Assembly (NCBI GenBank): GCA_038321825.1
Contig: JBBQFK010000001.1
Span: forward strand, 1,197 to 65,196
Direction: 5' to 3'
Origin: Cyanophyceae cyanobacterium
GTDB lineage: Bacteria > Cyanobacteriota > Cyanobacteriia > Cyanobacteriales > JAAUUE01
Length of the DNA: 64,000 bases
The notes under the pieces were generated by a model that worked only from the letters and a program-made list of their open reading frames with translations, did no database searches and was not told the DNA's origin. This document shows, in pieces, positions 3 through 23,159 of this stretch. Each line of letters begins with the position of its first letter. The stretch's first letter is position 1. The position numbers were made by a program, and so were the translations under genes.

Positions 3-533
3 GTGGTCTATCTTGGTGTCGAGCAAGCCGCTATTCCCCCCGGTTGTCCGCCCCATTTGCAATTTCTCTACGATGGTCAGGGCGTGATTGGGGAAAATAA
101 TTCTCTGTTTGTCTCTGTCAGCCATCCCGGTGATGGTCGGGCAACTGAGGGAAAAGCGACAATTATTGCTTCTTCTTTTGTGGATCCAACTCAATGGTGG
201 GAGGGAGATCAGGCTAGTTATCAGGCTCTAAAGGAAAAATATACCAAGGAGGCGATCGACCACCTCGCTACCTATTTTCATCTCAACTCTGAAACTATTA
301 TTTATACTGAAGCAGCCACTCCCCGGACTTTTGCTAAATACACAGCGCGCGATCGAGGTGTAGTCGGCGGTATTGGGCAGCGCGTCCCTACCTTTGGGCC
401 CTTCGGTTTTGCCAACCGCACCCCCATTAACAATCTCTGGCTAGTCGGCGACTCTACCCACCCCGGAGAAGGCACAGCAGGGGTAAGTTATTCTGCCCTT
501 ACCGTCGTCCGTCAAATTAATCAATCAAACTAG
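3..533 (+). CDS. FAD-dependent oxidoreductase of the phytoene-desaturase/CrtI family (CrtD/CrtISO-like), C-terminal fragment; 5' end outside window
   Basis: ORF is open to the window edge. C-terminal signature WLVGDSTHPGEGTAGVSYSA is typical of CrtI-family enzymes. Confidence 0.6.
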   Translation: MVYLGVEQAAIPPGCPPHLQFLYDGQGVIGENNSLFVSVSHPGDGRATEGKATIIASSFVDPTQWWEGDQASYQALKEKYTKEAIDHLATYFHLNSETIIYTEAATPRTFAKYTARDRGVVGGIGQRVPTFGPFGFANRTPINNLWLVGDSTHPGEGTAGVSYSALTVVRQINQSN

Positions 534-1767: not shown

Positions 1768-3231
1768 CTAGGGGCTTACCTGCGAGGAGAGTTGAGGAAA
1801 ACCAGTTTGTGTAATCTGTATAATCTGCATAGTTTGCTTAGTTTCTATGGGTTTGAAATTATTAATATTCCTGAGATCTAGCCCCCAGTAGGGAGTTGCC
1901 AAAAATAAAAATAGAGTTACATAGCTGCCCCAAAACAAAATTAGCAGAAATTGCCAATCTCTCCGGGAAACCAAAACTGTCGCAGTTAACATCGTTAGAG
2001 CTAGGGCTGCCATGGTCAAAAATAGCAAATTTCCGCCGATTTTTAATATGCCTACGTAGGCTGTACCGCCGATCGCCATCACCGTGAGGAGGATCAATAG
2101 ACTAGTCCAAAAACGTGGATAGGCTTGATTTTGGGGTAACTGAATGCCATCGCTAAAATAGGAGGCGATCGCTAGGGCAGCCACTGGATAGATGGGCAGT
2201 AAAGACCAAGAGTTACTAGGGATCAGCAATCCAGCACCTAGGTAAATCCCTAACCAGACAAGGACTAATTTCGCCCAACTCCAATTGTGTCGCCGCCATG
2301 CAAAGAGTAATCCTGCCGGGAGAAACACCAACCACGGTAGCCCATATCGCCAAATTTCCAAGAGATAAAACCAACTGCTCCGGTTTCTTTGGTCTTGTCC
2401 GAGATTCCTACCTAAAGTAACAAAAAACTGGTCTAGGGCTTGGGAAAAACTGAGGGATTGGAGATGGTAATGCCATTGCGCTCCGTACCAGCCCAGCATC
2501 GGCGCACAACCAAGGAAAATTCCACCCCAGAAATAGCCACAACTCAGCAGCCGGGGGGTATCCCAAGCCAGAAAAACTAGGGTAATGACTAGCCAAACAA
2601 CTCCACCTAAACCCTTTAGTAAGCACAAAGTCCCCAAGGACAATCCCGCCCCTAGGCAATAGCGTAAATCTCTTCTCGATCGAGCCACGCACCACATCAG
2701 AGCCACAATCAAAAATAATGCCGCCCCATCCAAGGTAGCCAAGCGACTATAGGACAGCACGGGTAACAGGGTGAGATAAATAAAACTAGCAAAGATGGCT
2801 TTTCTGGGAATCGTAAAAATTTCTCGTCCTAGACTGTAAACGAGGGGAACTGAGAGGGCGGCGAGGAGAGTGCCGGGGAGCCGGGTCATCAGGGGCGTGA
2901 CTCCACCCAATTGGTAGGCAAGGGCAGTAATCAATTCCATCAGGGGAAAGTGCTGCAACTCAAATTGATCGGGAGCATTCCAATCTAGGGAGCTAGCGGA
3001 GCCTTGCCAAATCTCCTTGGCTGTCTGGGCGATTTTACCCTCGTAGCTGGCTTGGATCGGCAGATGCCCAAGGTTGAAGGTAAATAAAATAACTGCGGCT
3101 CCGAGGAGAAGATAAAACCAAAACCAATGCTGATGGTGGGTTTCTTGTTTCTCGCTCCGGTTCGATCGTCCCCATGCGGAAATTTGACTATCCATAGTTA
3201 AAAAAGATTTGGAGTTAAAAAGATTTGGCAA
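1768..3231 (-). CDS. Polytopic membrane glycosyltransferase, family 39 / ArnT-PMT-like
   Basis: 487 aa with more than 10 hydrophobic segments. N-terminal third resembles ArnT/PMT-type glycosyltransferases. True start may be the internal Met (MDSQIS). Confidence 0.6.
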   Translation of the reverse strand: MPNLFNSKSFLTMDSQISAWGRSNRSEKQETHHQHWFWFYLLLGAAVILFTFNLGHLPIQASYEGKIAQTAKEIWQGSASSLDWNAPDQFELQHFPLMELITALAYQLGGVTPLMTRLPGTLLAALSVPLVYSLGREIFTIPRKAIFASFIYLTLLPVLSYSRLATLDGAALFLIVALMWCVARSRRDLRYCLGAGLSLGTLCLLKGLGGVVWLVITLVFLAWDTPRLLSCGYFWGGIFLGCAPMLGWYGAQWHYHLQSLSFSQALDQFFVTLGRNLGQDQRNRSSWFYLLEIWRYGLPWLVFLPAGLLFAWRRHNWSWAKLVLVWLGIYLGAGLLIPSNSWSLLPIYPVAALAIASYFSDGIQLPQNQAYPRFWTSLLILLTVMAIGGTAYVGILKIGGNLLFLTMAALALTMLTATVLVSRRDWQFLLILFWGSYVTLFLFLATPYWGLDLRNINNFKPIETKQTMQIIQITQTGFPQLSSQVSP

Positions 3232-3826
3232 ATACCTTACTTAATTCCGGATTGATGCAAAAATAGACATCCCTGTTGCTCTCTTCGACGATAGGTTAAG
3301 TAATGTTAAGATGAAATAGCAATTTTCAAGAGGGTGACTTTACATTCTGATTCTACAGCCCCTGATTCTACATCTAGAGAAAATCCCTAACCATTTGTAA
3401 AAATCTACAAAAATTTGCATTTATACATTAACTAGACCCCGAACCCAACACCCCACTTCAACACCTGACCTCGACTCACCTAACGAAATAATAGACTAGA
3501 CAATGGAGCTATTAATGAAGCTATTAATTTAGGGAGCGATCAAAAAGCTAAAACCTTCCTTCAAGGTAGCACCTGTTTAGGGAAATTTGCTATTCACTCA
3601 AGCAATCATTTAATCTAGGTACTTGTTTGTCTCTAGACCCAACTTCACCCAAAATTTATTAAAAAATTGGTAGTGATGCATAGAAATGGTGATTTTGGTG
3701 TCAAACGGTTAGTCTCCTGTTGCTCATAACATCACATTGCACCACTACCAAAAATTTACTATAGGTTTAACTAGCTTAATTAAATTTAACTCATAGATAC
3801 AAATTAGCAATCAGAATTTAGCACCT

Positions 3827-5794
3827 ATGGAAACGTCCCTAGAGTTTACTCTCCAAATAGTTATCGCTGTGTTTTCTGGGATTATGGCTCAGGTTTTTGC
3901 CGAATACCTAAAAGTACCAAGCATTGTGTTTCTGTTATTGCTGGGGATCGTACTGGGGGCTGATGGTCTGAACTTGCTCCATCCCCAAGAGTTGGGAGTC
4001 GGGTTAGAAGTTTTGGTATCTATGGCGGTGGCGGTGATTTTGTTTGAGGGGGGCTTGAGTCTAGATTTGCGAAATCTGGGGTTGGTTTCTGGCAGTTTGC
4101 GAAATTTGGTGACTTTGGGGAGTTTGATTACTTTCATAGGGGGGAGTATTGTTGCCCATTATTTGGCAGAGTTTCCTTGGTCGATCGCTGTCCTCTACGC
4201 TTCCTTGGTGGTGGTGACGGGACCAACGGTGGTGAGTCCGCTCTTGAAACAGGTGCAGGTCGATCGACCCGTGGCGACTTTGCTAGAAGGGGAAGGAGTA
4301 CTGGCGGATCCGGTGGGAGCAATTTTGGCTTTCGTAGTGCTGAATACGATTATTGATGGCAATATTTTTGCGGGCAGGAGTGCGGAGGCGATCGCCAGTT
4401 TTAGTAGCCTAATTTGGAGCCTAATTTTAGGGGGCAGCATTGGTTTAGGCGGTGGGTTAGTGTTGGAACAGGTTTTAAGGCGGGCTTTGTTCCTTTCCCA
4501 AGAACTAAAAAATCTCCTAGTTTTAGCCTCAGTCTGGGGTTTATTTACCCTGTCCCAAATCCTGAAAAGTGAGTCGGGGTTGATGGCGATGGTGATTCTT
4601 GGCTTGGTGTTGGGGGCAGCGGATCTGCCGGGGGAAAGATTACTGCGGAAGTTTAAGGGACAGCTAACTATCCTCGGCATATCAGTATTATTTATCTTAC
4701 TGGCAGCGGATTTGTCGATCGCTAGTCTCTTTGCCTTGGGCTGGGGCAGTCTAGCTACGGTGCTTGTCCTCATGTTTGTCGTCCGACCCATCAGCATTTT
4801 TCTGTGCACATGGCAGAGCGACTTTAACTGGCGGCAGAAATTATTTCTTTGTTGGGTTGCCCCTAGGGGAATCGTCAGTGCGTCCGTGGCTTCCCTATTT
4901 GCGATTATTCTCACGGAGCGGGGTATCACTGGGGGCGAATCTCTCAAGGCTCTGGTATTCCTAACTATTATGCTCACCGTATTTCTCCCCGGTTTAACAG
5001 CAGGTTGGGTTGCCAAACTTTTGCAAATTACTCCCCACAGTGAAACCGGAGCTGTAATTATTGGTTGTCATCCTCTAAGTATGTTGATTGCTCGATTGTT
5101 TCAGGAGCGGGGAGAGTCGGTAATTTTAATTGATACAGATGCAGAGGCTTGCCAACGGGCGATCGCCGCCGATCTTTCTGTGATTCAGAGTAGCGGTCTA
5201 GACATCAAAGCCCTAGAAGATGCGGGGTTAGACTCCATGGGAACCTTTGTCGCCATGACCAACAACAGCGAAGTAAACCTAGTGCTGGCTCAACACGCCG
5301 CTACGGAGTTTAAGCCCCCCAGAGTTCTCGCCGTGTTTTCCCACGAATCCACCGATGAAGCTGCCAGTGAATCTGGTTCTGTCCTACCAGCGTTTACAAA
5401 CCAAATGGCAATTAAAACATGGAATCAATACCTGCAAGAAGGCAATATCAAGCTAGGTACAACGATCCTAGATACAGAAAAGTTCCCCCAGCAGCAGGCT
5501 CATCTGCAAAATTTAATTAATTCAGAAACGTTAGTCCCTTTGATCATTGCTAGGAAAGGCAGAGTACAAATTCAACCAGCAACGGCGGAATGGCAGCCGG
5601 GAGATGAAGTAATATATCTCCTCCACGATGCTCGCCCCCAACTAATCAAGCGCCTCTCAGGAGCCACGGCTGCCTCTCCATTGGTACTAGAAAAATTATC
5701 CGAGGTGGAAAATATTCCCTACGCTGCGGTCTTTGCTGTCAATGGTGCGAAGGAAAATAATTCGGTGTTGCTGAATGAGAATATAAGTGACTAA
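3827..5794 (+). CDS. CPA1-type Na+/H+ (cation/proton) antiporter with C-terminal RCK/TrkA-N-like domain
   Basis: About 400 aa of polytopic exchanger core (VVVTGPTVVSPLL, WVAPRGIVSASVA), then a soluble TrkA-N-like segment (AVIIGCHPLS...VILIDTD). Confidence 0.8.
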   Translation: METSLEFTLQIVIAVFSGIMAQVFAEYLKVPSIVFLLLLGIVLGADGLNLLHPQELGVGLEVLVSMAVAVILFEGGLSLDLRNLGLVSGSLRNLVTLGSLITFIGGSIVAHYLAEFPWSIAVLYASLVVVTGPTVVSPLLKQVQVDRPVATLLEGEGVLADPVGAILAFVVLNTIIDGNIFAGRSAEAIASFSSLIWSLILGGSIGLGGGLVLEQVLRRALFLSQELKNLLVLASVWGLFTLSQILKSESGLMAMVILGLVLGAADLPGERLLRKFKGQLTILGISVLFILLAADLSIASLFALGWGSLATVLVLMFVVRPISIFLCTWQSDFNWRQKLFLCWVAPRGIVSASVASLFAIILTERGITGGESLKALVFLTIMLTVFLPGLTAGWVAKLLQITPHSETGAVIIGCHPLSMLIARLFQERGESVILIDTDAEACQRAIAADLSVIQSSGLDIKALEDAGLDSMGTFVAMTNNSEVNLVLAQHAATEFKPPRVLAVFSHESTDEAASESGSVLPAFTNQMAIKTWNQYLQEGNIKLGTTILDTEKFPQQQAHLQNLINSETLVPLIIARKGRVQIQPATAEWQPGDEVIYLLHDARPQLIKRLSGATAASPLVLEKLSEVENIPYAAVFAVNGAKENNSVLLNENISD

Positions 5795-5817
5795 ATAGGG
5801 AGATTATCAAAAAAATC

Positions 5818-7137
5818 ATGGTAAAAAAACTGCTATCTCTATTTTCTGGTTGTGGTGGTATGGATTTAGGTTTTGATGGAGGTTTTAAGGTTCATGTAAA
5901 TTTAGTAAATTCTTCAATTAACCCTCACTGGATCACAGGAGAACTAAATAAACAAGTAATGTTAGCTAAAAATGATTTTGAATTGATTTTTGCTAATGAT
6001 ATTGTTAGAGCCGCAAGAAATGCATGGGTATCTTATTTCACCAAAAGAGAGATAAATCCTACCACCTTTCATCTCGGTAGTATTGTGGATTTAGTTAAAA
6101 GCTCTGAGGTAGGAAAATTCAATTTCCCTAGCAATGTTGATATTGTAACTGGAGGGTTTCCTTGTCAGGATTTTAGTGTCGCAGGTAAAAGAAAAGGTTT
6201 TAATTCTCACAAAAGCCATAGGGGAGAAAACCTAGATGAAATAGATTCTACTGAAAATCGTGGACAATTATATCAATGGATGAAAAAAGTAATTGAAATC
6301 ACTAATCCCAAGGTATTTATTGCTGAAAATGTCAAGGGTTTAGTCTCGCTTTCTAATGCCAAATCAATTATTCAATCTGACTTTGAATTAATAGGTGAAT
6401 ATGGGTATATAGTGCTGGCAAAAGTTGTATTTGCTCCCGACTATGGCATCCCTCAAATGCGTGAACGAATCTTTTTCATAGGGCTTAATAAGCAATATTT
6501 ACGTCCTGAAGCATTGATGGCTCTACAACAACCAATAGTTGCTCCAGCTTTTGATCCATTTCCTCCAAAAACCCATACTAAGATTGAATCTCAAGGCTCC
6601 TTATTTGATTCGTTACTATCCCTAAAACCTTACACTAAAGTTGGGGCAGTATTAGAGTCTTTACATGAACCAGAGCAAGAGCTACAAGATTTAGCACAAA
6701 TGAAATATTCAAAGGCTAAATATTGTGGAAAACATCAAGGACAAATTGAAATTAATTTAGATGGACTTGCCCCTACTATTCGTTCTGAGCATCATGGCAA
6801 TATTGAATATCGACGGCTTTCTTTAGAGCATGGAGGTCGGTATATTAATGAGTTGAATCAAGGACTAAGAGAAAGAAGGTTAACTGTTAGAGAATGTGCC
6901 AGAATTCAGACTTTTCCTGATGATTATGAATTTGTTCGAGAATCTAAGGATGATTTTCAATTAGGGGCAAGTAGTAGCTACAAATTAATTGGGAATGCGG
7001 TTCCTCCTTTCTTGGCATATCATTTTGCTAGAAGACTTGAAAGCATATGGGGAAACTTATTTATCAATGATTCTTTCATGGTAAATCCAAGTCAAAATAT
7101 AAGGATACCTAAGGTTTTTCCTAGTCCAGTAAATTAA
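5818..7137 (+). CDS. DNA (cytosine-5)-methyltransferase, type II RM methylase
   Basis: All canonical m5C motifs in order: I LFSGCGGMDLGF, IV GGFPCQDFSVAG, VI ENVKGL, VIII QMRERIFFIG, IX TVRECARIQTFPDDYEF, X GNAVPP. Confidence 0.93.
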   Translation: MVKKLLSLFSGCGGMDLGFDGGFKVHVNLVNSSINPHWITGELNKQVMLAKNDFELIFANDIVRAARNAWVSYFTKREINPTTFHLGSIVDLVKSSEVGKFNFPSNVDIVTGGFPCQDFSVAGKRKGFNSHKSHRGENLDEIDSTENRGQLYQWMKKVIEITNPKVFIAENVKGLVSLSNAKSIIQSDFELIGEYGYIVLAKVVFAPDYGIPQMRERIFFIGLNKQYLRPEALMALQQPIVAPAFDPFPPKTHTKIESQGSLFDSLLSLKPYTKVGAVLESLHEPEQELQDLAQMKYSKAKYCGKHQGQIEINLDGLAPTIRSEHHGNIEYRRLSLEHGGRYINELNQGLRERRLTVRECARIQTFPDDYEFVRESKDDFQLGASSSYKLIGNAVPPFLAYHFARRLESIWGNLFINDSFMVNPSQNIRIPKVFPSPVN

Positions 7138-7871
7138 ATATCGGAATTATCTTGATCCATCTTTAAATCTTCAAGGGAAATATTTTCAGAAATTACTATT
7201 TTTATTATCTCTCTAACTAAATCATCTTGCCAAGAGTAAGTACATTGTTTGAAAAGTCGATCAACTGCTGCTCTAGCATACCTCTTAATCCATGCTTTAT
7301 TATGACTAATTAGCTCAGTTCTAGGATTTTCATTGATATGTTGATATTTATCCCAGCTTAATCGAGGACGTGGTGATCTATCCTGAAATAAATCAGTCTC
7401 TCCAAGTGTTATTCCTAAATAATATCGACCATATCTAAATTCAAATCTTGAACCATTTGATGAACGGCGACAAAATATAACCCACATATTTAAGTCTAAT
7501 TTGCTAATGGTAGAACCGGGGATTACTCTAGAACCTTTGCCCTTATTCTCTTTACAACTTTTAAGTTCAATCTTTCTTCTAAATTCATTGTTTTTATTAT
7601 CTATAAAAATTATTTGAATGTCAGGTACTTTAATTCCTGAGAGCTTAATATTTTGACAATCAGTATGATAGAAGGCTTCCTCGAACTTTTGACAAGCCAA
7701 ACTTGAAAACCCAGAATCAGTGTTCGCTTCACCATCTGTCCATTTTATTTGCGAAAGTTGGTCACTTGCTACTGCTAAAAGCTGAGTAGTTTTCTGTACC
7801 AACAAGGGTAGAAGTTGGAGATCAATAAATTCTTGACTATCCATAAATTTCATAACCAGAATATGAGCCAC
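7134..7871 (-). CDS. Putative cognate type II restriction endonuclease (PD-(D/E)xK candidate)
   Basis: Convergent with the m5C methylase, with stop codons overlapping inside AATTAA. Shares the same AT-rich composition. Candidate catalytic motif VPD-x17-ELK. No family recognised by eye. GTG start at 7871, or ATG six codons later. Confidence 0.5.
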   Translation of the reverse strand: MAHILVMKFMDSQEFIDLQLLPLLVQKTTQLLAVASDQLSQIKWTDGEANTDSGFSSLACQKFEEAFYHTDCQNIKLSGIKVPDIQIIFIDNKNNEFRRKIELKSCKENKGKGSRVIPGSTISKLDLNMWVIFCRRSSNGSRFEFRYGRYYLGITLGETDLFQDRSPRPRLSWDKYQHINENPRTELISHNKAWIKRYARAAVDRLFKQCTYSWQDDLVREIIKIVISENISLEDLKMDQDNSDI

Positions 7872-7887
7872 CCGCCCTAGTAAGTTT

Positions 7888-9234
7888 CTAAAGTTGCTTA
7901 AGAATATCTCCTAGGGTACTCACTAACTGGTCAATGTGGGATTTCTCGATAATTAGGGGCGGTGACAAGGCGATAATATCCCCCGTAGTTCTAATTAAAA
8001 TTCCGGCTTCGTAGGCTCGGAGAAAACACTCAAAAGCTCTCGCCGTAGGTTTGCCGGGGATGGGTTCCAGTTCAATGCCTGCAATTAAACCCAGATTGCG
8101 GATATCAATCACGGCGGGTAACCCCTTGAGAGAATGAACCGCTTCTTGCCAGTAGGGAGCCAAACTGCCAGCCCTAGCAAACAGATTTTCTCGATCGTAG
8201 ATATCTAAAGTTGCCAGCGCCGCCGCACAAGCTACCGGATGCCCAGAATAGGTATAACCATGAAATAGCTCAATGGCGTTCTCATCTCCCGCCATGAAAG
8301 CCTGATGGATATCTTCCCGCACCACCACCGCCCCCATGGGTATTGAGGCATTGGTAAGCCCCTTGGCAAGGCAAACAATATCAGGGATCACCCCAAAATA
8401 ATCCGTCGCAAACCCCGTACCCAAGCGCCCGAAACCGCTAATTACCTCATCAAAAATCAGTAAAATTCCGTACTTGTCGCAGATCTGCCGGAGCTTTTGT
8501 AAATAGCCCACCGGAGGAAGTAACACCCCCGTGGATCCCGCCACTGGCTCGACGATGACCGCCGCAATATTAGATGCATCATGGAGGGCGACAATGCTCT
8601 CTAGCTCCTCAGCCAAATGCGCTCCCCACTGGGGCTGTCCCTGGGAAAAGGCATTGTGTGACAAATTATGGGTATGGGGTAGATGATCCACACCACCTAG
8701 CAAACCCCCAAAAAACTTCCGCACTGTGGGGATGCCCCCTACGGACATACCACCAAAACCTACCCCGTGGTAGCCCCGTTCCCTGCCAATTAACTTTTGC
8801 CGAGTGCCATTTCCCTTAACTCGATGGTAAGCAAGGGCAATTTTTAGGGCAGAATCCACTGCTTCGGAGCCAGAATTTGCAAAGAAGACATGGTTTAAGT
8901 CTCCGGGAAACATCTTCGCTAACCTAGTAGCGGTCTCGAAGGCGATCGGGTGTCCCATCTGAAAAGCAGGAGCATAATCTAGTTGACTCATCTGAGTAGC
9001 TACTGCTTGGACAATTTCTTGCCGACCATGACCAGCATTGACGCACCATAAACCTGCTGTCCCGTCTAGTACCTGTCGTCCATCGTCGGTGGTGTAGTAC
9101 ATTCCTTGGGCAGCGACCATTAGCCGGGGTTTCGCCTTAAATTGCCGATTTGCGGTGAAAGGCATCCAAAAGGCTTCGAGGTCTGGGGGAATATTCGCAG
9201 GATTAGCAGTGGGGTCAAACATAGATGATGACAA
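7888..9234 (-). CDS. Class-III PLP-dependent aminotransferase (omega-amino acid:pyruvate aminotransferase-like)
   Basis: AGLWCVNAGHGRQEI, ANSGSEAVDSALK, LLIFDEVISGFGRLG and YTYSGHP are typical of aminotransferase class III. Confidence 0.85.
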   Translation of the reverse strand: MSSSMFDPTANPANIPPDLEAFWMPFTANRQFKAKPRLMVAAQGMYYTTDDGRQVLDGTAGLWCVNAGHGRQEIVQAVATQMSQLDYAPAFQMGHPIAFETATRLAKMFPGDLNHVFFANSGSEAVDSALKIALAYHRVKGNGTRQKLIGRERGYHGVGFGGMSVGGIPTVRKFFGGLLGGVDHLPHTHNLSHNAFSQGQPQWGAHLAEELESIVALHDASNIAAVIVEPVAGSTGVLLPPVGYLQKLRQICDKYGILLIFDEVISGFGRLGTGFATDYFGVIPDIVCLAKGLTNASIPMGAVVVREDIHQAFMAGDENAIELFHGYTYSGHPVACAAALATLDIYDRENLFARAGSLAPYWQEAVHSLKGLPAVIDIRNLGLIAGIELEPIPGKPTARAFECFLRAYEAGILIRTTGDIIALSPPLIIEKSHIDQLVSTLGDILKQL

Positions 9235-9388
9235 TTTTTAGATAATTTTATAACTAGATGGTAGGTAAAAGAAGCCAAAGCTGAAACTTTAGCCAACTCC
9301 ATCCTTAACTTCATAAATTATAAATTGCCTCTAGAAATTACCATGATCAATTGTCAGGAACTTATTATCAAAATCTGGCTCTAAGTTC

Positions 9389-9985
9389 CTATTCTGACTG
9401 CTCCAGAGCCTGTAATGCTGCCTTGGCGATCGCCAGACTCCACCGGGCTTGTTCCAGAGGAGATAGCTCTTCCCAAACTCCAGTAAACGCCTGATTTTCT
9501 TCGGTATTGCCTCGCATGGCATAGGCAAGGGGACGAGCCAAAACCTGCAAATCTTCCTCCGCCCACTGTTCCAAGAGAGATTGTACAGAGGTGACTAATT
9601 TGTCTTGAAGGGAAATCTTTTGCTGGACTACTGCTTGGGCTGCCGTAGCGATCGACTCTAGCCAAGCTGTCGGAATTCCTGCAAATCGATCGAGTAAACC
9701 CTGTTGAATAGTGGCCCACTGGATGGTCGATCGTTTTCCCAAATGACTAAATAAATTTTGCGCCCTGCTTTCTAGTTCTGCCTCATCGAAAATACCATCT
9801 AGGGAAAATAGCTGCTCTTGTCGATCGAAATAGCTGAAAGTTTCCTCTTGAGCAGGTTCCCAAGGATAAAAATCTTCCTCTGGTTGAGTGACGATTTCCA
9901 GAAATAACTTTTCCACTAAAGGTAATGGATCAGACCCTTCTGGACTTTGATGATTAAAATGATTATTAAATGGCTGCCTTGCCAT
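9389..9985 (-). CDS. Hypothetical protein (acidic, helical)
   Basis: Long ORF with codon usage like its neighbours. No motif recognised. Confidence 0.45.
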   Translation of the reverse strand: MARQPFNNHFNHQSPEGSDPLPLVEKLFLEIVTQPEEDFYPWEPAQEETFSYFDRQEQLFSLDGIFDEAELESRAQNLFSHLGKRSTIQWATIQQGLLDRFAGIPTAWLESIATAAQAVVQQKISLQDKLVTSVQSLLEQWAEEDLQVLARPLAYAMRGNTEENQAFTGVWEELSPLEQARWSLAIAKAALQALEQSE

Positions 9986-10133
9986 AAACCTAAACCCCCA
10001 TAAACGTTGTGTTGCTTTCCTGCTGCTTTAACTCAGGCAAAAGAACCTACAATGGCTATTCCGTAAGTTCCGCATAATTGAACAAATATGGCTCCTAGAG
10101 ATGAATCAAAAGATCCTAGGCATAACACAGGGA

Positions 10134-10763
10134 TTACTGGAGTGAGGTCTGTCGAGATTCTTTTAAGGACAGGCGATAGTTTCTGACTGCTTGAGTTTGC
10201 TGGTCTGTCTGAATAAAACTCATGAGTAGAGAGGGGTCTAGGTCTGGTAACAGTAGACTTCGATCGCTCTGGAGGTACTCTTGTCCATTGCTGGCAAGGT
10301 GATAGAAAGTTAACTTTTGCTGTTGCCAAAACCACACCTCTGGCACTCCCAAACCTTGATACACCGCCAATTTGTCCACGCCTCCACTGGTTAAGACTAT
10401 TTCCAGAGCAATATCAGGAACTTCTTTTAGCGCTCCCAGACAATAACATTCATCAGGCTCCACACCCCTCTGCCCATCTTGGTTTCTAAAAGTGGCATTC
10501 CCATAGCCGTTGAGATCAATATTCCGTTCTTCAGCGTAGGTTTCTAACAGGCGAGTGATAATTTTTTTGAGGCTCTCATGCTCCACAGAAGTAGTCATTG
10601 CAATCTCTAGGGTTCCTGTTAGATAGGTCAGCCGTGGAAAGCGATCGACAAAGATTGCAGAAATCTCTAAGTATTGCTCCCAAGTAGCACCGTAGAGAGT
10701 TACTCTCTGTTCTTTAGCTGCCTCTAGGGTTGTGGGGTCAAGGAGAAGCATCGGTATCACCAT
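10134..10763 (-). CDS. Uma2-family (DUF820) putative endonuclease
   Basis: Family-typical layout: TWEQYLEI...RLTYLTGTLEIAMTTSVEHE...GVEPDECYCL. Confidence 0.75.
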   Translation of the reverse strand: MVIPMLLLDPTTLEAAKEQRVTLYGATWEQYLEISAIFVDRFPRLTYLTGTLEIAMTTSVEHESLKKIITRLLETYAEERNIDLNGYGNATFRNQDGQRGVEPDECYCLGALKEVPDIALEIVLTSGGVDKLAVYQGLGVPEVWFWQQQKLTFYHLASNGQEYLQSDRSLLLPDLDPSLLMSFIQTDQQTQAVRNYRLSLKESRQTSLQ

Positions 10764-10846
10764 TCCTCGTGATTAGATTACTTTCATCATAAATCACTTT
10801 TCGGGGCTTGAGGGGCAATGTGAATATTGTTAGTAATTAAGGGCAA

Positions 10847-10863
10847 GGTGGGCAAGGCCCACC
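10847..10863. repeat. GC-rich hairpin repeat GGTGGGC-AAG-GCCCACC
   Basis: Perfect 7-bp stem with a 3-nt loop in the intergenic DNA between Uma2 and ndk. A degenerate relative lies at about 59003-59030. Confidence 0.6.
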
Positions 10864-10949
10864 CTACGTACTACCTATGGAATTTATGGGTAAGTTCTGC
10901 CTAAATCCTTAACAAATCCTCAATAAATCCTTGAATGGAAACGTCATAT

Positions 10950-11399
10950 TTACTCGTAGAGCCAAGGATTAGCTACGGGCTGCCAGATAACCAACTCCTC
11001 TGGAGTAAACCATAGAGCTATTTCTGTTTTGGCAGTTTCGATCGCATCGGAGCCGTGGATCAAGTTCCGCCCAATACTGACCCCAAAGTCCCCCCGGATT
11101 GTCCCCAATTCTGCGGCGAGGGGGTTGGTCGCCCCAATGATTTTCCGAGCAGAGGCAACTACACCATCTCCTTCCCATACCATCGCCACCACAGGAGATG
11201 AGGTAATAAATTTTACCAAGCCGCTAAAGAAGGGTCTTTCCTTGTGAACATCGTAGTGTTTTTCTGCCAGTTCTTTGCTGACACCCATAAATTTCATACC
11301 GACTAGGGTAAAACCCTTGGTTTCAAAGCGTTTGATCACATCGCCCACTAGTCCACGTTGAACTCCATCGGGTTTGATCGCAATAAATGTCCTTTCCAA
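10950..11399 (-). CDS. ndk: Nucleoside diphosphate kinase
   Basis: [19 protein letters not shown] and active-site NLIHGSD; 149 aa. Confidence 0.95.
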
Positions 11400-11473
11400 A
11401 ATAATCTCCTCAATAACTGGTAATCAATAGCTTGCAAGTCTGCAATTAATATCAACAACACTTTATCAAAAAT

Positions 11474-11501
11474 CAGTTACCAGTTATCAGTTACCAGTTA
11501 T
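11474..11501. repeat. Heptanucleotide tandem repeat (CAGTTAY)x4, STRR-like
   Basis: cagttac cagttat cagttac cagttat, read directly in the ndk-thyX intergenic region. Confidence 0.8.
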
Positions 11502-11528
11502 CAACTCTTGCTGTTCACTGTTCCTTGT

Positions 11529-13154
11529 TTACTGTTCACTGTTTAGTTGGGCTATCTTTCGATCGAGCCTTTGCTCTGCTGTCAATCTCTCCAAATCATA
11601 GTCATTCATATCTACAAACTGCATTCCCGAAGCAATTAGGGGATGAACTTTAGTGATCTGTTGATACATCTCTTGGGCAACTAGACGGTAGGAAGGATGT
11701 CCCTGCCTTGCACTGCGTAACTCTAGTAAATGGTAGGCTTCTCGGAGATTTAGCTTGATTTTCCATCGAATCTTGTGGGCAAAGGGGACGATGTATTGAG
11801 CAGCTTGGGGAAAGTCTTGGGCGATCGCATTGTAGGCAGCAGCAGCAGATTCTAGGGCTTTTTGATAGGGTGTTGCTAAACCAGATTCAATCAACTCAGA
11901 GGGAACTACATAGCCGTGGGCTACGGTGTAATCCTGCCGCTCTTGACTAATCAGGCGATGACGTTGCAAATCTCGGTAGGCTCCAATATCTATAAGTAAA
12001 TCAAAGGTGTAGGCTGTCTCTTCAAAAGCCCTGCCTACTTTGTAAAATCTAGATTGTCGATCGCCTAAGTAGGTTTGGAGGATTTCTATTTTTTGCTCCG
12101 GGGATAACTCAGCTACCTGCTCTCTAATTTGCTCAATGGTAGAACTGCTATGGGGATAGAGGATCGCCGCAATTACTTTATCTTCGGCGTGTCGATCGAA
12201 CTCAATTAGTTGCACGCCTCTTTGACCTTGGCTAGGCTTTGGCTCCCTTAATAAATGCTGAGTTATTTCTCTAGTAGCTCCTAAGTTTTTGGCAATGTAT
12301 TTAGAATAATCAATCCCCCGCTCTGTCTTGGATTTCTTGATAAAAGAGGGAATAATTTTCCCTAACTCTTCTTGCATGGATAAGCCTAGGGATTTAATTT
12401 CTGCATGGGGTGAGGCAGCAAACTTTGTCAGTAGATATTCAAAAGCTCGACCGTTCCCATACAAACCTACGTTAGTTAAAGTTGCCATGGGTAATAAACC
12501 CCGGAGAATGTCTAGGGCTTTGGCTTTGGTGGCACTGAGATAAGCTCGATCGCTAGTCTTGGCATCTTGGGGATGCTGAGTTTTTAGCCATTGGGTAAGC
12601 GGATCAATTAAGGCAGAATAGGTATCAAATAAGCTGTCTAGGGCTGATTCGTAGAGCGTTGCATAGCTAGACTCCATAATGGTCGGCTCTCGGTAATAGA
12701 GATACTTACCATCTTGCTTTTTGTTGAACAGTACGTACCTTGTGGATTTTTCTAGGGGAGAAATACCAATGCGACAATCTTCTAGGGCTTTGGCTGCGAT
12801 GTTGCTAATTCCCTCACAGGCAATGTGCGCCCCGCCTAGTTCGGCGATCGAGTCATCTCCGTAACCAAGTAACACTCGATCGTAAAATGACTCAGCTTGT
12901 TTAATGGCAATTAACTGTTCTGTGCTGTTATCAACATCGCCAACAATGCCCTGAAACCCCGCCTCGCTTGCCTTGATAAACTCATCTAACAATATTTGTC
13001 GTAAATCTTTTTCACTGCGACTGTAGCGAGAAAATAAGGCTCCTTTCACTACTTCAGGCAGGTTTTTTAAGCAAAATACGGGCTTGTCTAAGTTGGTGAC
13101 AAAGGGAGTTAATAGGGATTGATCTGGAAGGCTATCTATCAAAATTTCAGGCAT
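11529..13154 (-). CDS. thyX: FAD-dependent thymidylate synthase ThyX, long two-domain form
   Basis: 541 aa. The C-terminal half carries the ThyX signature LQRHRLISQERQ. The N-terminal half carries a degenerate counterpart, FSRYSRSEKDLRQ. Confidence 0.8.
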   Translation of the reverse strand: MPEILIDSLPDQSLLTPFVTNLDKPVFCLKNLPEVVKGALFSRYSRSEKDLRQILLDEFIKASEAGFQGIVGDVDNSTEQLIAIKQAESFYDRVLLGYGDDSIAELGGAHIACEGISNIAAKALEDCRIGISPLEKSTRYVLFNKKQDGKYLYYREPTIMESSYATLYESALDSLFDTYSALIDPLTQWLKTQHPQDAKTSDRAYLSATKAKALDILRGLLPMATLTNVGLYGNGRAFEYLLTKFAASPHAEIKSLGLSMQEELGKIIPSFIKKSKTERGIDYSKYIAKNLGATREITQHLLREPKPSQGQRGVQLIEFDRHAEDKVIAAILYPHSSSTIEQIREQVAELSPEQKIEILQTYLGDRQSRFYKVGRAFEETAYTFDLLIDIGAYRDLQRHRLISQERQDYTVAHGYVVPSELIESGLATPYQKALESAAAAYNAIAQDFPQAAQYIVPFAHKIRWKIKLNLREAYHLLELRSARQGHPSYRLVAQEMYQQITKVHPLIASGMQFVDMNDYDLERLTAEQRLDRKIAQLNSEQ

Positions 13155-14974: not shown

Positions 14975-16690
14975 TCATTCTCTCAACTCTTGGAGAAGCT
15001 GCTGGGTGAGGGTATGGGGGGAGAGGGAGTCGGTGCTGCCGTTGGCTATGGCTTGTTGGAGGAGATCGCGGAAGTTGCCCCAAGCTGTTTGGGTATAGGG
15101 ATGATTTTCTCCTAAACTTTTTGTGTAAATCTCTAAGGTTCTCAAATACAAAGGTTCGGCATCACCGTAGCATCCCATGGATTTGTAAAGTAATGCCAAA
15201 TTGTTGAGGCTGGTGGCGGTGTCTGGATGATCTAATCCTAGTTGGGTTTCCCTGATCTGGAGTGATCTCCTATACAAAGGTTCCGCATCGCTGTGGCTTC
15301 CCATGGATCGGTAAAGTTCTGCTAAGTTGTTCAAGCTGGTGGCAGTGAGAGGATGGTCTGCCCCTAGTTGAGATTTCCTGATCTGGAGTGCTCTCTCATA
15401 TAAAGGTTCAGCATCGCTGTAGCGTCCCATGACTCGATAAAGTTCCGCCAAATTATTCAGGCTGGTGGCGGTGTGTGGATGGTCTGCCCCCAGTTGGGTT
15501 TCCCTGATCTGTAACGATTGCTCAAACAAGGGTTCGGCATCGCTGTAACGTACCATTGCTTTGTAAAGGGCTGCTAAATTATTCATGCTGATGGATGTGT
15601 GTGGATGGTCTGCCCCTAGCTGGATTTCCCTGATTTGCAGTGAGCGCCTATACAAAGGTTCGGCATCGCTGTAGCGTCCCATAGCATAATAAAGTGCCGC
15701 CAAATTGTTCAGGCTGGTGGCGGTGTGTGGATGGTCTGCCCCTAGCCGGATCTCCATGATCTGGAGCGACCTATAAAACAAAGGTTCAACATCGCTGTAG
15801 CGTCCCATGGCATAGTAAAGTTCTGCCAAATTCTTCAGGCTAGAGGCGGTGTGTGGATGATCAACTCCCAGTTCGGTTTCCCTTATGTAGAGCGCGCGCT
15901 GATGCAAAGGTTCGGCATCGCTGTAGCGTCCCATAGATTCGTAAAGTCCCGCCAAATTGTTCAAGCTGGAGGCGGTGTCGGGATGGTCTGCTCCCAGTTG
16001 GGTTTCTCTGATCTGGAGCGATCGCTCAAACAAGGGTTCGGCATCGCTGTAGCGTCCCATAGCACAGTAAAGTCCCGCCAAATTGTTCAGGCTGGAGGCG
16101 GTGTCTGGATGGTTAGCACCCAGTTGGGTTTCACATATCTGGAGCGATCGCTGATGCAAAGGTTCGGCATCGCTGTAGCGTCCCATAGATTCGTAAAGTC
16201 CCGCCAAATTGTTCAAGCTTTGTGCGGTGTCGGGATGGTCAATACCCAGTTGGGTTTCCCTGATGTGGAGTGATCGTCCATGCAAAGGTTCTGCATCGCC
16301 ATAGCGTCCCATGACTCGATAAAGTTCCGCCAAATTGTTGAGACTGGTGGCAGTGGATGGATGGTCTGACCCTAGAATTTTTTCTGAGGAGCTTAAGCCT
16401 CTCTCACTAGGTTCTAGAGCTAGGGTGTAGAATCCTTGTCCCTCATAGAATCTAGCGATTCCTGTAAATGCCCATCCCAGATTGAAATCTTCTCCGGGGT
16501 TGGGTATATCCTCGATCATTTCTCGGCTGAGGAGTTCCAGATGGGGAATCGCCGGGGCTACACTAGCGATCAAATCTTGAGTAGGAGTTTCAGGTATCTG
16601 TTTAGCAACTGCGAGCATCACCTTCACAAAAGCTCGCTTCAATTGATCCGCTTCAGTTTCCTGCTTAACTTTAACTAACGTCTGTGACAT
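14975..16690 (-). CDS. TPR sensor-like protein (about 11 kinesin-light-chain-type repeats) paired with the NB-ARC NTPase
   Basis: 571 aa. Its start codon lies 20 nt inside the 3' end of the NB-ARC ORF. Regular 42-aa TPR units. Confidence 0.85.
   Translation of the reverse strand: MSQTLVKVKQETEADQLKRAFVKVMLAVAKQIPETPTQDLIASVAPAIPHLELLSREMIEDIPNPGEDFNLGWAFTGIARFYEGQGFYTLALEPSERGLSSSEKILGSDHPSTATSLNNLAELYRVMGRYGDAEPLHGRSLHIRETQLGIDHPDTAQSLNNLAGLYESMGRYSDAEPLHQRSLQICETQLGANHPDTASSLNNLAGLYCAMGRYSDAEPLFERSLQIRETQLGADHPDTASSLNNLAGLYESMGRYSDAEPLHQRALYIRETELGVDHPHTASSLKNLAELYYAMGRYSDVEPLFYRSLQIMEIRLGADHPHTATSLNNLAALYYAMGRYSDAEPLYRRSLQIREIQLGADHPHTSISMNNLAALYKAMVRYSDAEPLFEQSLQIRETQLGADHPHTATSLNNLAELYRVMGRYSDAEPLYERALQIRKSQLGADHPLTATSLNNLAELYRSMGSHSDAEPLYRRSLQIRETQLGLDHPDTATSLNNLALLYKSMGCYGDAEPLYLRTLEIYTKSLGENHPYTQTAWGNFRDLLQQAIANGSTDSLSPHTLTQQLLQELRE
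15100..16351. repeat. Array of about 10 tandem 126-bp coding repeats (TPR units); coordinates approximate
   Basis: Repeated nucleotide blocks such as ggttcggcatcgctgtagcgtcccat recur with a 126-bp period. They also create spurious antisense ORFs. Confidence 0.8.
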
Positions 16691-20883: not shown

Positions 20884-20968
20884 AAACTCTAGTGAGTGAC
20901 TTTATCTACTACCTACATTTTACCTGAACTTGAATGTTATTATAGGATATAAATCATTTTCTTGAGCC

Positions 20969-22627: not shown

Positions 22628-22637
22628 GAAAAAGCCT

Positions 22638-23099: not shown

Positions 23100-23159
23100 T
23101 TTCTGGGAATAATTAGCTCTAGCTAAATCAGTAGATCGGGTGCAACTCTAAGGTGGTTT

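What the first reader, a model, noticed from the sequence alone, without database searches (positions are those of the whole stretch)
5818..7871. Compact m5C restriction-modification cassette forming a CGATCG-free, AT-rich island between two convergent host genes
The methylase carries every m5C motif. The tail-to-tail 245-aa partner shares its AT-rich composition, and their stop codons overlap inside AATTAA. The partner has a plausible PD-x17-ExK motif (VPD...IELK). Scanning by eye, I found no CGATCG or GCGATCGC in this ~2.05 kb, whereas the flanking genes carry them every 100-300 bp. The cassette fills the gap between the antiporter stop (23 bp away) and the aminotransferase stop (16 bp away). 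This argues for a recent, very tight horizontal insertion. The nuclease matches no family I can recognise, so specificity and fold are open.
Basis: partly seen in the sequence, partly recalled or inferred. Interest (0 to 1): 0.55.

Follow-up and report, generated by a model that had tools for sequence, protein, structure and literature searches.

The report
CpaAI-like CGCG restriction-modification gene pair
This AT-rich two-gene island in a cyanobacterial genome is an ordinary Type II restriction-modification system: a cytosine-5 methylase plus a nuclease related to CpaAI, a known enzyme for the sequence CGCG. It was acquired horizontally, but long ago.

Summary
A complete m5C methyltransferase gene (5818-7137, +) and a convergent 236-245-aa ORF (7134-7844/7871, -) overlap at their stop codons. 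Together they form the lowest-GC 2-kb stretch of the window (0.34 against 0.455) and contain no CGATCG.

The partner is a nuclease, and its family is not open. It has an invariant PD-x17-ELK motif and a confident AlphaFold model whose best, though weak, structural matches are restriction enzymes.

It is homologous to R.CpaAI of Clostridium pasteurianum (hhalign 99.5%, E 8e-23). I identified the CpaAI gene by mapping the published knock-out primers onto it. CpaAI recognises CGCG.

The methylase shares an invariant target-recognition core with M.CpaAI. CGCG is about ten-fold depleted in the host (9 observed, 85 expected). Predicted specificity is therefore CGCG.

The insertion is not recent. A relative at 87% nucleotide identity (Coleofasciculaceae SM2_1_6) carries the cassette at the same site. 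Synonymous divergence of the cassette genes equals that of the flanks, and dN/dS is 0.13 (M) and 0.20 (R).

The tight fit is partly secondary. The relative keeps 1.27 kb more, including a small RHH-like ORF that is also linked to M in Synechococcus PCC 7502.

Verdict: a new member of a known kind, of low to moderate interest.

The parts
5818..7137 (+). M gene: C5-cytosine DNA methyltransferase, 439 aa
   Evidence: PF00145 E 6e-52, covering profile positions 2-322 of 324. TIGR00675 scores 155 bits against a cut-off of 100.65. PADLOC MTase_II E 1e-73. 90% aa identity to the SM2_1_6 orthologue, dN/dS 0.13.
5842..5859 (+). Methyltransferase motif I (FSGCGG, AdoMet binding), aa 9-14
   Evidence: Read directly from the translation. 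Invariant in 12 related methyltransferases.
6154..6177 (+). Methyltransferase motif IV (GFPCQDFS) with catalytic Cys116
   Evidence: Translation. G113-S120 are invariant in alignment A3.
6709..6813 (+). Core of the target-recognition domain, aa 298-332 (SKAKYCGKHQGQIEINLDGLAPTIRSEHHGNIEYR)
   Evidence: S298, A300, Q307, G308, P319, T320, R322 and E324-E330 are invariant in all 12 aligned methyltransferases. These include M.CpaAI (L100) and the pP60P2 enzyme.
7134..7844 (-). R gene: candidate restriction endonuclease, 236 aa from ATG 7844. Upstream in-frame starts exist at ATG 7853 (239 aa) and GTG 7871 (245 aa).
   Evidence: The ORF is. Homologues start at MDSQ. 117 homologues, none with a Pfam domain. 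AlphaFold2 pLDDT 90, pTM 0.86. Homologous to R.CpaAI. dN/dS 0.20.
7560..7625 (-). PD-x17-ELK catalytic motif (P83, D84 ... E102, L103, K104; numbering from the GTG start)
   Evidence: Invariant in 57 homologues. In the model PD lies between strands 75-81 and 85-91, and ELK lies in strand 96-107. The motif aligns with PDL...ELK of the CpaAI subfamily.
7716..7730 (-). EANTD motif (E48-D52); E48 is a possible third acidic residue of the active site
   Evidence: N50 is invariant; E48 and D52 are conserved in at least 90%. The motif aligns with EANTD of R.CpaAI, the site of primer REN.Rv.
7365..7388 (-). FQDRSPRP signature motif (aa 162-169)
   Evidence: F162, Q163, R165, P167, R168 and P169 are invariant. 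The motif equals FPDRSPRP of R.CpaAI, the site of primer REN.Fw.
7132..7137 (.). AATTAA: overlapping stop codons of the convergent M and R genes, with no terminator between them
   Evidence: Sequence. The same 4-nt overlap occurs in PCC 7502 and Geminocystis. No terminator-like site lies in 5400-8300.
5762..5817 (.). Left junction. Homology with SM2_1_6 breaks here, where that genome has 1.27 kb more (67-aa RHH-like ORF and Uma2 gene). It includes the last codons and stop of the antiporter gene and a GGGAG ribosome-binding site 14 nt before the M ATG.
   Evidence: blastn segments. Junction alignment. ORFs and Pfam.
7845..7887 (.). Right junction: 43 nt between the aminotransferase stop (TAG at 7888-7890, minus strand) and the probable R start. 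No promoter-like site was found.

Best explanation
The island is a Type IIP restriction-modification system of the CpaAI kind.

The methyltransferase (5818-7137) methylates a cytosine at C5 in its target. The target is most likely CGCG.

The convergent gene (7134-7844) encodes a small Mg-dependent PD-(D/E)XK endonuclease. It has catalytic residues D84, E102 and K104, and probably E48. It cuts the same site when that site is unmethylated, so incoming phage or plasmid DNA is destroyed.

The cassette entered an ancestor of this Coleofasciculaceae-like cyanobacterium by horizontal transfer, between a Na+/H+ antiporter gene and a class-III aminotransferase gene. It has since been inherited vertically under purifying selection and has kept its AT-rich, HIP1-free composition.

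In the window's lineage a later deletion removed the small RHH-like ORF and the native region upstream of M. Each cassette gene now lies directly downstream of a co-oriented host gene and is probably transcribed by read-through.

**Shown here**
- Gene structure and catalytic motifs.
- Homology to R.CpaAI and M.CpaAI.
- Conserved R-M pairing.
- Shared insertion site with a relative.
- Purifying selection on both genes.
- CGCG depletion in the host.

**Inferred**
- CGCG specificity.
- Nuclease activity.
- Read-through expression.
For: **M**
- It carries all m5C motifs.

**R: motifs and fold**
- Invariant PD-x17-ELK, EANTD and FQDRxPRP motifs in 57 homologues.
- AF2 model with pLDDT 90 and pTM 0.86, with the motif on adjacent beta-strands.
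- Foldseek PDB hits are weak but are mostly restriction enzymes: DpnI E 2.8e-3, EcoRV TM 0.41 and probability 0.84, HincII, NaeI, SfiI, NhoI.

**R-M pairing**
- An M homologue lies next to every full-length R homologue examined: L001-L005, L013-L018, L099, L100. L006 holds only a fragment of R.
- Identities of the two proteins fall together: M/R of 90/73, 79/63, 67/48, 58/45 and 49/37%.

**Link to CpaAI**
- Primers REN.Rv and REN.Fw were used to verify disruption of cpaAIR (PMC4245778). They map exactly inside L100:10001-10891, which encodes P0385 of C. pasteurianum ATCC 6013.
- That knock-out removed the need for M.FnuDII (m5CGCG) methylation.
- CpaAI is described as a CGCG, m5C-type system.
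- P0385 scores E 1.9e-105 against the profile of the roughly 300-aa subfamily.
- That profile matches the window's subfamily with probability 99.5% and E 7.9e-23 over 206 columns. All signature motifs are in register.
- Direct BLASTP of the window R against P0385 gives E 5e-13.
- M.CpaAI shares the invariant TRD core with the window M.
- An independent REBASE-based prediction of CGCG exists for a Moraxella homologue of the pP60P2 nuclease (PMC3632715).

**CGCG depletion (observed / Markov-expected)**
- Window 9/85; L001 1/15; L002 1/22 (lowest of all 136 tetramers); PCC 7202 3/18; Geminocystis 4/14.5; L006 0/4.
- There is no depletion where the related M is solitary (Microcystis, 19/25).

**Age and selection**
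-.
Against: - No enzymatic or methylome data exist for this organism.
- The window's R is only 27% identical to R.CpaAI, and nucleases at that distance can differ in specificity.
- CGCG is not depleted in the 20 kb around the intact system of Synechococcus PCC 7502 (17 observed, 21.5 expected).
- In the AT-rich SAR11 loci the test has no power.
- GGCC is depleted at least as strongly as CGCG in most cyanobacterial loci. Depletion alone therefore does not single out CGCG, and the host clearly carries several other restriction systems.
- In the sister genome the R gene has a premature stop that removes about 27 residues. R decay therefore happens in this lineage.
- No promoter was detected for either gene.
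Confidence: 0.75

Rival explanations
1. It is a restriction-modification system of the same architecture, but its specificity is not CGCG. The target could be GGCC (HaeIII-like) or a longer site containing CGCG.
For: - M.HaeIII is the best PDB sequence match of the methylase (E 1.6e-26).
- GGCC is the most depleted palindrome in the window (23 observed, 243 expected) and in most cyanobacterial host loci, including PCC 7502 (0 of 45-47).
- R is only 27% identical to R.CpaAI.
- CGCG is not depleted around the PCC 7502 system.
Against: - The HaeIII match covers only the conserved catalytic motifs (aa 4-61, 136-226, 352-409), not the TRD.
- The TRD core is invariant with M.CpaAI across the clade.
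- GGCC is not depleted in L002 (26-28 observed, 42-46 expected) or in the SAR11 loci (17 of 20), both of which carry the system.
- CGCG depletion to about 0.1 of expectation at the tetramer level argues against a 6-bp site.
- GGCC depletion is a general trait of these cyanobacteria, where other GGCC methylases are described (PMC6560206 abstract).
Confidence: 0.12
2. The nuclease gene is no longer active, or is not expressed. The cassette now works only as a solitary methyltransferase with a decaying partner.
For: - R decay is common in the family. There is a premature stop in SM2_1_6, only a 64-residue fragment in L006 and a truncated 143-aa form in Gloeomargarita.
- Related methylases are solitary in Microcystis.
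- The window has lost the small regulator ORF and the native region upstream of M.
- No promoter was found upstream of R.
Against: - The window's R is full length and keeps every invariant residue of the family.
- dN/dS is 0.20 against SM2_1_6 and 0.20 against PCC 7502.
- The host is about ten-fold depleted in CGCG, as expected under long-term restriction pressure.
Confidence: 0.1
3. The 245-aa protein is not a restriction enzyme. It would be another partner of the methylase, such as a Vsr-like mismatch nicking enzyme or a methylation-dependent nuclease.
For: - m5C methylases are often linked to Vsr-type repair nucleases (my own knowledge).
- The top Foldseek hit is DpnI, a methyl-directed enzyme.
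- There is no direct activity assay.
Against: - No match to Vsr or to any other Pfam or NCBIfam model.
- The homologue CpaAI behaves as a classical restriction enzyme. Unmethylated plasmids are restricted, M.FnuDII-methylated ones are not, and the knock-out removes the barrier.
- The DpnI match is weak (TM 0.20).
Confidence: 0.03

Closest known systems
CpaAI restriction-modification system of Clostridium pasteurianum ATCC 6013 (recognises CGCG, m5C-type; R gene cpaAIR = CPAST_c05920 / P0385, with M adjacent)
   Same: - The gene pair is convergent (R then M, tail to tail), as in the window.
- R is homologous, with EANTD, PD...ELKS.K, IPGS and F.DR[ST]PRP in register.
- M shares the invariant TRD core.
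   Different: - The window's R is a short form: 236 aa against 296 aa. It lacks about 60 residues inserted between the EANTD helix and the PD strand.
- R identity is only 27% and M identity 37%.
- The window's M carries extra insertions after motifs I and IV.
- No activity data exist for the window's system.
pP60P2 R-M module of Psychrobacter sp. DAB_AL60 (ORF5 and ORF6; CGCG predicted by similarity to a Moraxella catarrhalis REBASE entry)
   Same: - M is 54% identical over its full length, including the TRD.
- R is homologous (34% over aa 83-234).
- It is a two-gene module with no Pfam domain for R.
   Different: - It is plasmid-borne.
- Its R is the long form (299 aa).
- Its M has an N-terminal extension (470 aa).
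- CGCG is not depleted on the plasmid.
FnuDII, BstUI, ThaI and Bsh1236I (classical CGCG enzymes); Pfam family ThaI, cited as PF15514 from memory
   Same: The predicted recognition sequence is the same. M.FnuDII methylation (m5CGCG) protects against CpaAI.
   Different: The window's R matched no Pfam family, so it did not match the ThaI family either. If it is an isoschizomer, it belongs to an unrelated or undetectably related nuclease family. Cleavage position is unknown here. That the classical enzymes cut CG^CG blunt is my own knowledge and was not tested.
EcoRV-like (beta-class) PD-(D/E)XK restriction endonucleases (EcoRV, HincII, DpnI catalytic domain, NaeI)
   Same: - The arrangement is an acidic residue on a helix, then PD, then (D/E)xK. 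It reads E48 / D84 / E102-x-K104, against E45 / D74 / D90-x-K92 in EcoRV (EcoRV numbering from my own knowledge).
- These enzymes are the top structural matches.
   Different: - TM-scores are only 0.2-0.41 and sequence identity 5-14%.
- There is no sequence-level match to any solved structure.
- The family has no close structural relative.
DmtC / M.Ssp6803I / M.XorII family of CGATCG-specific m5C methyltransferases (the HIP1-associated solitary methylases of cyanobacteria)
   Same: They are m5C methyltransferases that are widespread in cyanobacteria.
   Different: In Cyanobacterium stanieri PCC 7202 the CGATCG methylase is Cyast-1970, with no nuclease (Elhai 2015, Table S4). The R homologue there is Cyast_1724, with its own adjacent M. 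The lack of CGATCG in the island is a matter of composition and origin, not of specificity.

Membership tests
C5-cytosine DNA methyltransferase (Pfam PF00145, TIGR00675) | Whole-protein score above the curated cut-offs | tested here: met
   PF00145 scores 177.5 bits against a cut-off of 22. TIGR00675 scores 155.1 bits against 100.65.
C5-cytosine DNA methyltransferase (Pfam PF00145, TIGR00675) | Motif I (FxGxG), motif IV (PCQ with the catalytic Cys), motif VI (ENV), motif VIII (QxRxR), and motifs IX and X (GNAVPP) | tested here: met
   FSGCGG at aa 9-14, GFPCQDFS at 113-120, AENVKGL at 169-175, QMRERIFFIG at 213-222, RECARIQTFPDDY, GNAVPP. All are invariant in alignment A3.
C5-cytosine DNA methyltransferase (Pfam PF00145, TIGR00675) | Transfer of a methyl group to C5 of a target cytosine | not testable with these tools
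   Needs bisulfite, EM-seq or nanopore data, or a protection assay.
PD-(D/E)XK nuclease superfamily | PD...(D/E)xK catalytic motif on two adjacent beta-strands | tested here: met
   P83-D84 and E102-L-K104 are invariant in 57 sequences. They lie at strands 85-91 and 96-107 of the AF2 model.
PD-(D/E)XK nuclease superfamily | Core alpha-beta-beta-beta-alpha-beta fold superposable on known members | tested here: inconclusive
PD-(D/E)XK nuclease superfamily | Metal-dependent phosphodiester cleavage | not testable with these tools
   Needs an enzyme assay and active-site mutants.
CpaAI-type restriction endonucleases (CGCG) | Sequence homology to R.CpaAI | tested here: met
   The cpaAIR gene was identified by exact primer mapping. 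hhalign gives probability 99.5% and E 7.9e-23. BLASTP gives E 5e-13.
CpaAI-type restriction endonucleases (CGCG) | Adjacent m5C methyltransferase with the same type of target-recognition domain as M.CpaAI | tested here: met
   The TRD core, SKAK..QG..PT[IM]R.EHHGNIE, is invariant in 12 methylases including M.CpaAI.
CpaAI-type restriction endonucleases (CGCG) | Recognition and cleavage of CGCG | not testable with these tools
   Indirect evidence only. CGCG counts are 9 observed against 85 expected in the window. CGCG is also depleted in the other five R-bearing loci with enough expected sites (L001, L002, L006, L015, L016). It is not depleted in PCC 7502, and the SAR11 loci lack power.
ThaI family of CGCG endonucleases (Pfam; accession PF15514 from memory) | Match to the family profile | tested here: not met
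   No Pfam family matched at E up to 1.
C-protein-controlled Type II R-M systems | A small DNA-binding controller gene inside the cassette | tested here: not met
   The window holds only the two genes, and no ORF fits in the 23-nt or 43-nt junctions. Relatives do have one: a 67-aa RHH-like ORF in L001 and L014, and a 66-aa HTH_3 ORF in L016 and L006.
DmtC / M.Ssp6803I CGATCG-specific solitary m5C methylases | Orthology to the REBASE-assigned CGATCG methylase of the same genome | tested here: not met
   In PCC 7202 that enzyme is Cyast-1970. The R-linked M lies beside Cyast_1724. This is indirect, literature-based evidence.

The most novel reading that the evidence does not exclude
After it lost its own small regulator and upstream region, this selfish two-gene module may have become wired into host transcription.

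M would be made only by read-through from the Na+/H+ antiporter gene. R would be made only by read-through from the aminotransferase gene. The two transcripts would collide over overlapping stop codons with no terminator between them.

The ratio of restriction to protection would then be set by the expression of two unrelated host genes and by convergent-transcription interference. That would be an unusual form of domesticated control.

A weaker variant of the idea concerns the short-form subfamily found in cyanobacteria, SAR11 and giant-virus-like contigs. It may cut at a different position, or recognise a different site, from CpaAI.
Probability: 0.2. Interest if true: 0.4.

Novelty: new member of a known kind. 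Interest (0 to 1): 0.22.

Why it matters
**For the organism.** The result predicts a concrete barrier to genetic transformation. Plasmids would need m5CGCG methylation (for example by M.FnuDII) or would need to lack CGCG sites. It also explains the ten-fold lack of CGCG in the genome.

**For annotation.**
- More than 1000 proteins are labelled 'hypothetical', with no Pfam, NCBIfam or structural model. They can now be tied to one experimentally validated enzyme, CpaAI.
- These proteins share clear catalytic and signature motifs.
- The family reaches into SAR11 genomes and giant-virus-like contigs.

None of this changes how restriction-modification is understood. REBASE very probably already lists these genes as putative CGCG systems.

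Tried and rejected
1. **CGATCG (PvuI/XorII-like) specificity.** The island lacks CGATCG and solitary CGATCG m5C methylases are common in cyanobacteria, which suggested this. I rejected it because Elhai 2015 Table S4 assigns a different gene (Cyast-1970) in a genome that also carries this R-M pair.

2. **Naming the nuclease from libraries.** Pfam, NCBIfam, PADLOC and PDB sequence searches gave nothing. The only hit was a meaningless PADLOC match at E 0.003.

4. **Inferring specificity from the partners of related methylases.** In Microcystis the M is solitary, with an unrelated 162-aa ORF next to it. In another lineage the neighbour is a 372-aa ORF with no domain. Neither was informative.

5. 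**Searching for an empty-site relative.** I used the aminotransferase as query. It returned 80 metagenome loci, the best at 78% aa identity, and none has the antiporter, M or R nearby. The boundaries of the original insertion could not be defined.

6. **Terminal repeats, target-site duplications, promoters and terminators** at the cassette ends. Nothing was found beyond chance.

7. **Recognition-site avoidance inside the cassettes themselves.** Expected counts are too low to be informative.

8. **Palindrome depletion as the sole guide to specificity.** GGCC, CCWGG and CGCG are all depleted, so the method cannot decide alone.

9. **Phage collection.** No homologue of R.

10. **Rfam scan of 3000-11000.** No RNA family.
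Full report
**1. What is in the sequence**

- The window holds an ORF at 5818-7137 (+, 439 aa) and a convergent ORF at 7134-7871 (-, 245 aa from a GTG start).
- Their stop codons overlap inside AATTAA at 7132-7137.
- The pair sits between a Na+/H+ exchanger with a TrkA-N domain (3827-5794, +) and a class-III aminotransferase gene (7888-9234, -).
- The gaps are 23 nt on the left and 16 nt on the right, counted from the GTG start.
- GC falls to 0.32-0.38 in the island, against 0.45-0.54 in the flanks. The island is the lowest-GC 2-kb stretch in the 64 kb.
- CGATCG occurs 198 times in the window and never in the island. GCGATCGC occurs 36 times in the window and never in the island.
- The island lies in the longest CGATCG-free gap, 5160 to 8192.
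- After scaling the host's 16-fold CGATCG enrichment to the island's base composition, only about 3 sites are expected. The absence is real but only marginally significant.
Homologues start at 'MDSQ', so the nuclease gene most likely starts at ATG 7844 (236 aa), 43 nt from the aminotransferase stop.

**2. The methyltransferase**

- PF00145 matches over its whole length (E 6e-52). TIGR00675 is above its cut-off.
- Motifs I, IV (with the catalytic Cys116), VI, VIII, IX and X are all present. They are invariant among twelve relatives.
- The best solved relative is M.HaeIII. That match covers only the catalytic motifs, not the target-recognition domain.

**3. The partner protein**

- It matches no Pfam, NCBIfam or PDB sequence.
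- It has 117 homologues in the 5.8-billion-protein collection and 101 cluster representatives in the exhaustive search. All are 'hypothetical'.
- An alignment of 57 homologues shows invariant P83-D84, E102-L-K104-S105, N50 and F162-Q-x-R-x-P-R-P.
- The AlphaFold2 model built on this alignment is confident (pLDDT 90, pTM 0.86). It places PD and ELK on adjacent strands.
- Foldseek against the PDB finds nothing strong. Even so, the top of the list is dominated by PD-(D/E)XK restriction enzymes: DpnI, EcoRV (TM 0.41), HincII, NaeI, SfiI and NhoI.

**4. Pairing with the methylase**

- Every full-length homologue of the partner that I examined lies next to a homologue of this methylase.
- The loci examined are:
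  - Coleofasciculaceae SM2_1_6;
  - an uncultured Synechococcus;
  - three Pelagibacteraceae single-cell genomes;
  - Synechococcus PCC 7502;
  - Cyanobacterium stanieri PCC 7202;
  - Geminocystis PCC 6308;
  - Psychrobacter plasmid pP60P2;
  - two contigs with giant-virus-like gene content.
- One further locus, L006, holds only a 64-residue fragment of R beside an intact M.
- The two proteins diverge in step. M/R identities are 90/73, 79/63, 67/48, 58/45 and 49/37%.
- The cassette lies at unrelated chromosomal positions in the different genera. This fits a mobile R-M unit.
- Related methylases also occur alone (Microcystis) or with an unrelated neighbour.

**5. Specificity**

- *First lead.* A paper on pP60P2 states that its nuclease resembles a Moraxella catarrhalis gene for which REBASE predicts CGCG (PMC3632715). 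The pP60P2 methylase is 54% identical to the window's over its full length.
- *Identification of the cpaAIR gene.*
  - CpaAI of Clostridium pasteurianum recognises CGCG and is an m5C-type system (PMC5027557).
  - Disruption of cpaAIR removed the need to methylate plasmids with M.FnuDII (m5CGCG) (PMC4245778).
  - The two gene-specific primers of that study translate to TDRPLKVF and DRSPRPQV. These are the two signature motifs of the family.
  - A profile of the roughly 300-aa subfamily retrieved CPAST_c05920 of C. pasteurianum ATCC 6013 (P0385, E 1.9e-105).
  - That protein contains both peptides. Both primers map exactly inside its gene. It is therefore R.CpaAI.
- *Relation to the window's proteins.*
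  - The profile of the window's subfamily matches the CpaAI subfamily with probability 99.5% and E 7.9e-23. All motifs are in register.
  - The direct pairwise E-value is 5e-13, at 27% identity.
  - The methylase convergent with cpaAIR is 37% identical to the window's. It shares an invariant TRD core, SKAK..QG..PTIR.EHHGNIE.
- *CGCG depletion.* Counts are observed / Markov-expected.

| Locus | CGCG observed / expected |
|---|---|
| Window (host part) | 9 / 85 |
| SM2_1_6 (L001) | 1 / 15 |
| L002 | 1 / 22 (lowest of all 136 tetramers) |
| PCC 7202 (L015) | 3 / 18 |
| Geminocystis (L016) | 4 / 14.5 |
| L006 | 0 / 4 |
| Microcystis, solitary M (L007) | 19 / 25 (not depleted) |
| PCC 7502 (L014) | 17 / 21.5 (not depleted) |

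- *Caveats.*
  - The SAR11 loci are too AT-rich to test.
  - GGCC is depleted as strongly as CGCG in most cyanobacterial loci.
  - GGCC is, however, not depleted in L002 or SAR11.
- I conclude CGCG with roughly 75% confidence.
- The idea that the system targets CGATCG was rejected from Elhai 2015, Table S4.

**6. History**

- Locus L001 (Coleofasciculaceae cyanobacterium SM2_1_6) aligns with the window at about 87% DNA identity from 2235 to 12760. The cassette is at the same site there.
- It is AT-rich there too (GC 0.34 against 0.45) and free of CGATCG.
- Nei-Gojobori estimates between the two genomes are below.

| Gene | dS | dN/dS |
|---|---|---|
| Antiporter | 0.62 | 0.05 |
| M | 0.37 | 0.13 |
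| R | 0.69 | 0.20 |
| Aminotransferase | 0.40 | 0.09 |

- The cassette has thus diverged together with its flanks, under purifying selection. The insertion predates the split and is not recent.
- In SM2_1_6 the R gene has a premature stop that removes about 27 residues.
- SM2_1_6 also has 1.27 kb more between the antiporter gene and M. This extra DNA holds a Uma2-family gene and a 67-aa ORF divergent from M.
- The 67-aa ORF is 87% identical to an ORF at the same position next to M in PCC 7502. It weakly resembles the ribbon-helix-helix protein ORF56.
- Geminocystis and L006 carry a 66-aa HTH_3 ORF at that position instead.
- The simplest reading is that the ancestral cassette had a small regulator. 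The window's lineage then deleted it, together with the native region upstream of M and the original 3' end of the antiporter gene. The 'very tight fit' is thus partly secondary.

**7. How it probably works here**

- M methylates CGCG on the host chromosome. R cuts unmethylated CGCG in incoming DNA. Both statements are inferred from homology.
- No sigma-70-like promoter lies upstream of either gene. No terminator lies anywhere in 5400-8300.
- Each gene follows a co-oriented host gene closely. I therefore infer read-through transcription from the antiporter gene into M and from the aminotransferase gene into R, with the two transcripts converging over the overlapping stops. This step is not shown.

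**8. Novelty**

- This is a Type IIP R-M pair of a family that has one validated member. It is a new member of a known kind.
- The family lacks any Pfam or NCBIfam model and any solved structure.
- It spreads widely: cyanobacteria, SAR11, Bacteroidota, Clostridia, Moraxellaceae and giant-virus-like contigs.
- These points are useful for annotation but are not surprising.

**9. Dead ends**

- No empty-site relative was found.
- No terminal repeats were found.
- There are no phage homologues.
- There are no RNA families in the region.
- Two fold libraries were unavailable.

Noticed in passing
window 1-64000: Many palindromes are almost or wholly missing from the 64 kb. GGCC occurs 23 times against 243 expected, CCWGG 10 against 111, GGWCC 4 against 59. 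The following occur 0 times: CTGCAG, GRCGYC, GGCGCC, GCCGGC, TGCGCA, CAGCTG, ACATGT, CTCGAG and RCCGGY. RCCGGY is absent even though CCGG occurs 209 times. The host evidently carries, or has carried, many restriction systems.
   Followed up: partly
L001 7163-8447 (Coleofasciculaceae SM2_1_6), absent from the window at 5762-5808: The sister genome has 1.27 kb more between the antiporter gene and M. It holds a Uma2-family gene (PF05685, E 2e-17) and a 67-aa ORF divergent from M. That ORF is 87% identical to an ORF at the same place in Synechococcus PCC 7502 (L014 12137-12340). It weakly resembles the RHH protein ORF56, so it may be a cassette regulator lost from the window.
   Followed up: partly
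L016 12124-12324 (Geminocystis PCC 6308) and L006 1517-1711: In these relatives a 66-aa HTH_3 protein, 85% identical between the two loci, lies divergently upstream of M. It looks like a classical C-protein-type controller. Different subclades of the cassette thus carry different small regulators.
   Followed up: partly
L017 8743-10696; L018 10001-12095; also the contig of P0077 (no DNA held): Homologues of both R (about 41% identity) and M (about 36%) lie on long contigs, up to 445 kb. The gene content of these contigs looks like giant viruses: poxvirus-type poly(A) polymerase, mRNA capping enzyme, SWIB, XPG, PARP, ankyrin and Ser/Thr kinases. The genes are in tandem in L017 and convergent in L018.
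   Followed up: partly
L003, L004, L005 (Pelagibacteraceae single-cell genomes AG-426-B11, AG-898-F23, AG-410-D23), about 6001-7800: Three SAR11 single-cell genomes carry the complete convergent R-M pair (R 37% identical, M 49%). The cassette GC there is close to that of the host (0.27 against 0.27-0.29).
   Followed up: partly
L007 5001-6296 (Microcystis aeruginosa EAWAG127a): A methylase 62% identical to the window's, with the same TRD core, stands alone between the rubredoxin/psbEFLJ cluster and the pmbA/tldD genes. Near-identical copies occur in many Microcystis assemblies. CGCG is not depleted there (19 of 25). It is probably a solitary CGCG m5C methylase.
   Followed up: partly
L001 5125-5853: The R gene of SM2_1_6 has an in-frame stop after ...SWQDDLVR, which removes about 27 C-terminal residues. 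The aminotransferase gene of the same MAG aligns in two overlapping segments, as if frameshifted. Either could be an assembly error.
   Followed up: no
window 10134-10763 (-): A 209-aa ORF is 33% identical to the Uma2-family protein of L001, and an orthologous copy lies at L001 2120-2602. Uma2-type 'putative restriction endonuclease' genes recur around these loci, including L014 17406-17996.
   Followed up: no
window about 20900-23300, and 3200-3800: Two further low-GC stretches (about 0.36 and 0.35). The first still contains 3-5 CGATCG sites, unlike the island. Neither was examined.
   Followed up: no
window 346-381, 15893-15898, 56590: Of the nine surviving CGCG sites, four lie in two GCGCGCG runs. 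Several others abut CGATCG/HIP1-like sequence, for example GCGCGATCG and CGATCGCG.
   Followed up: no
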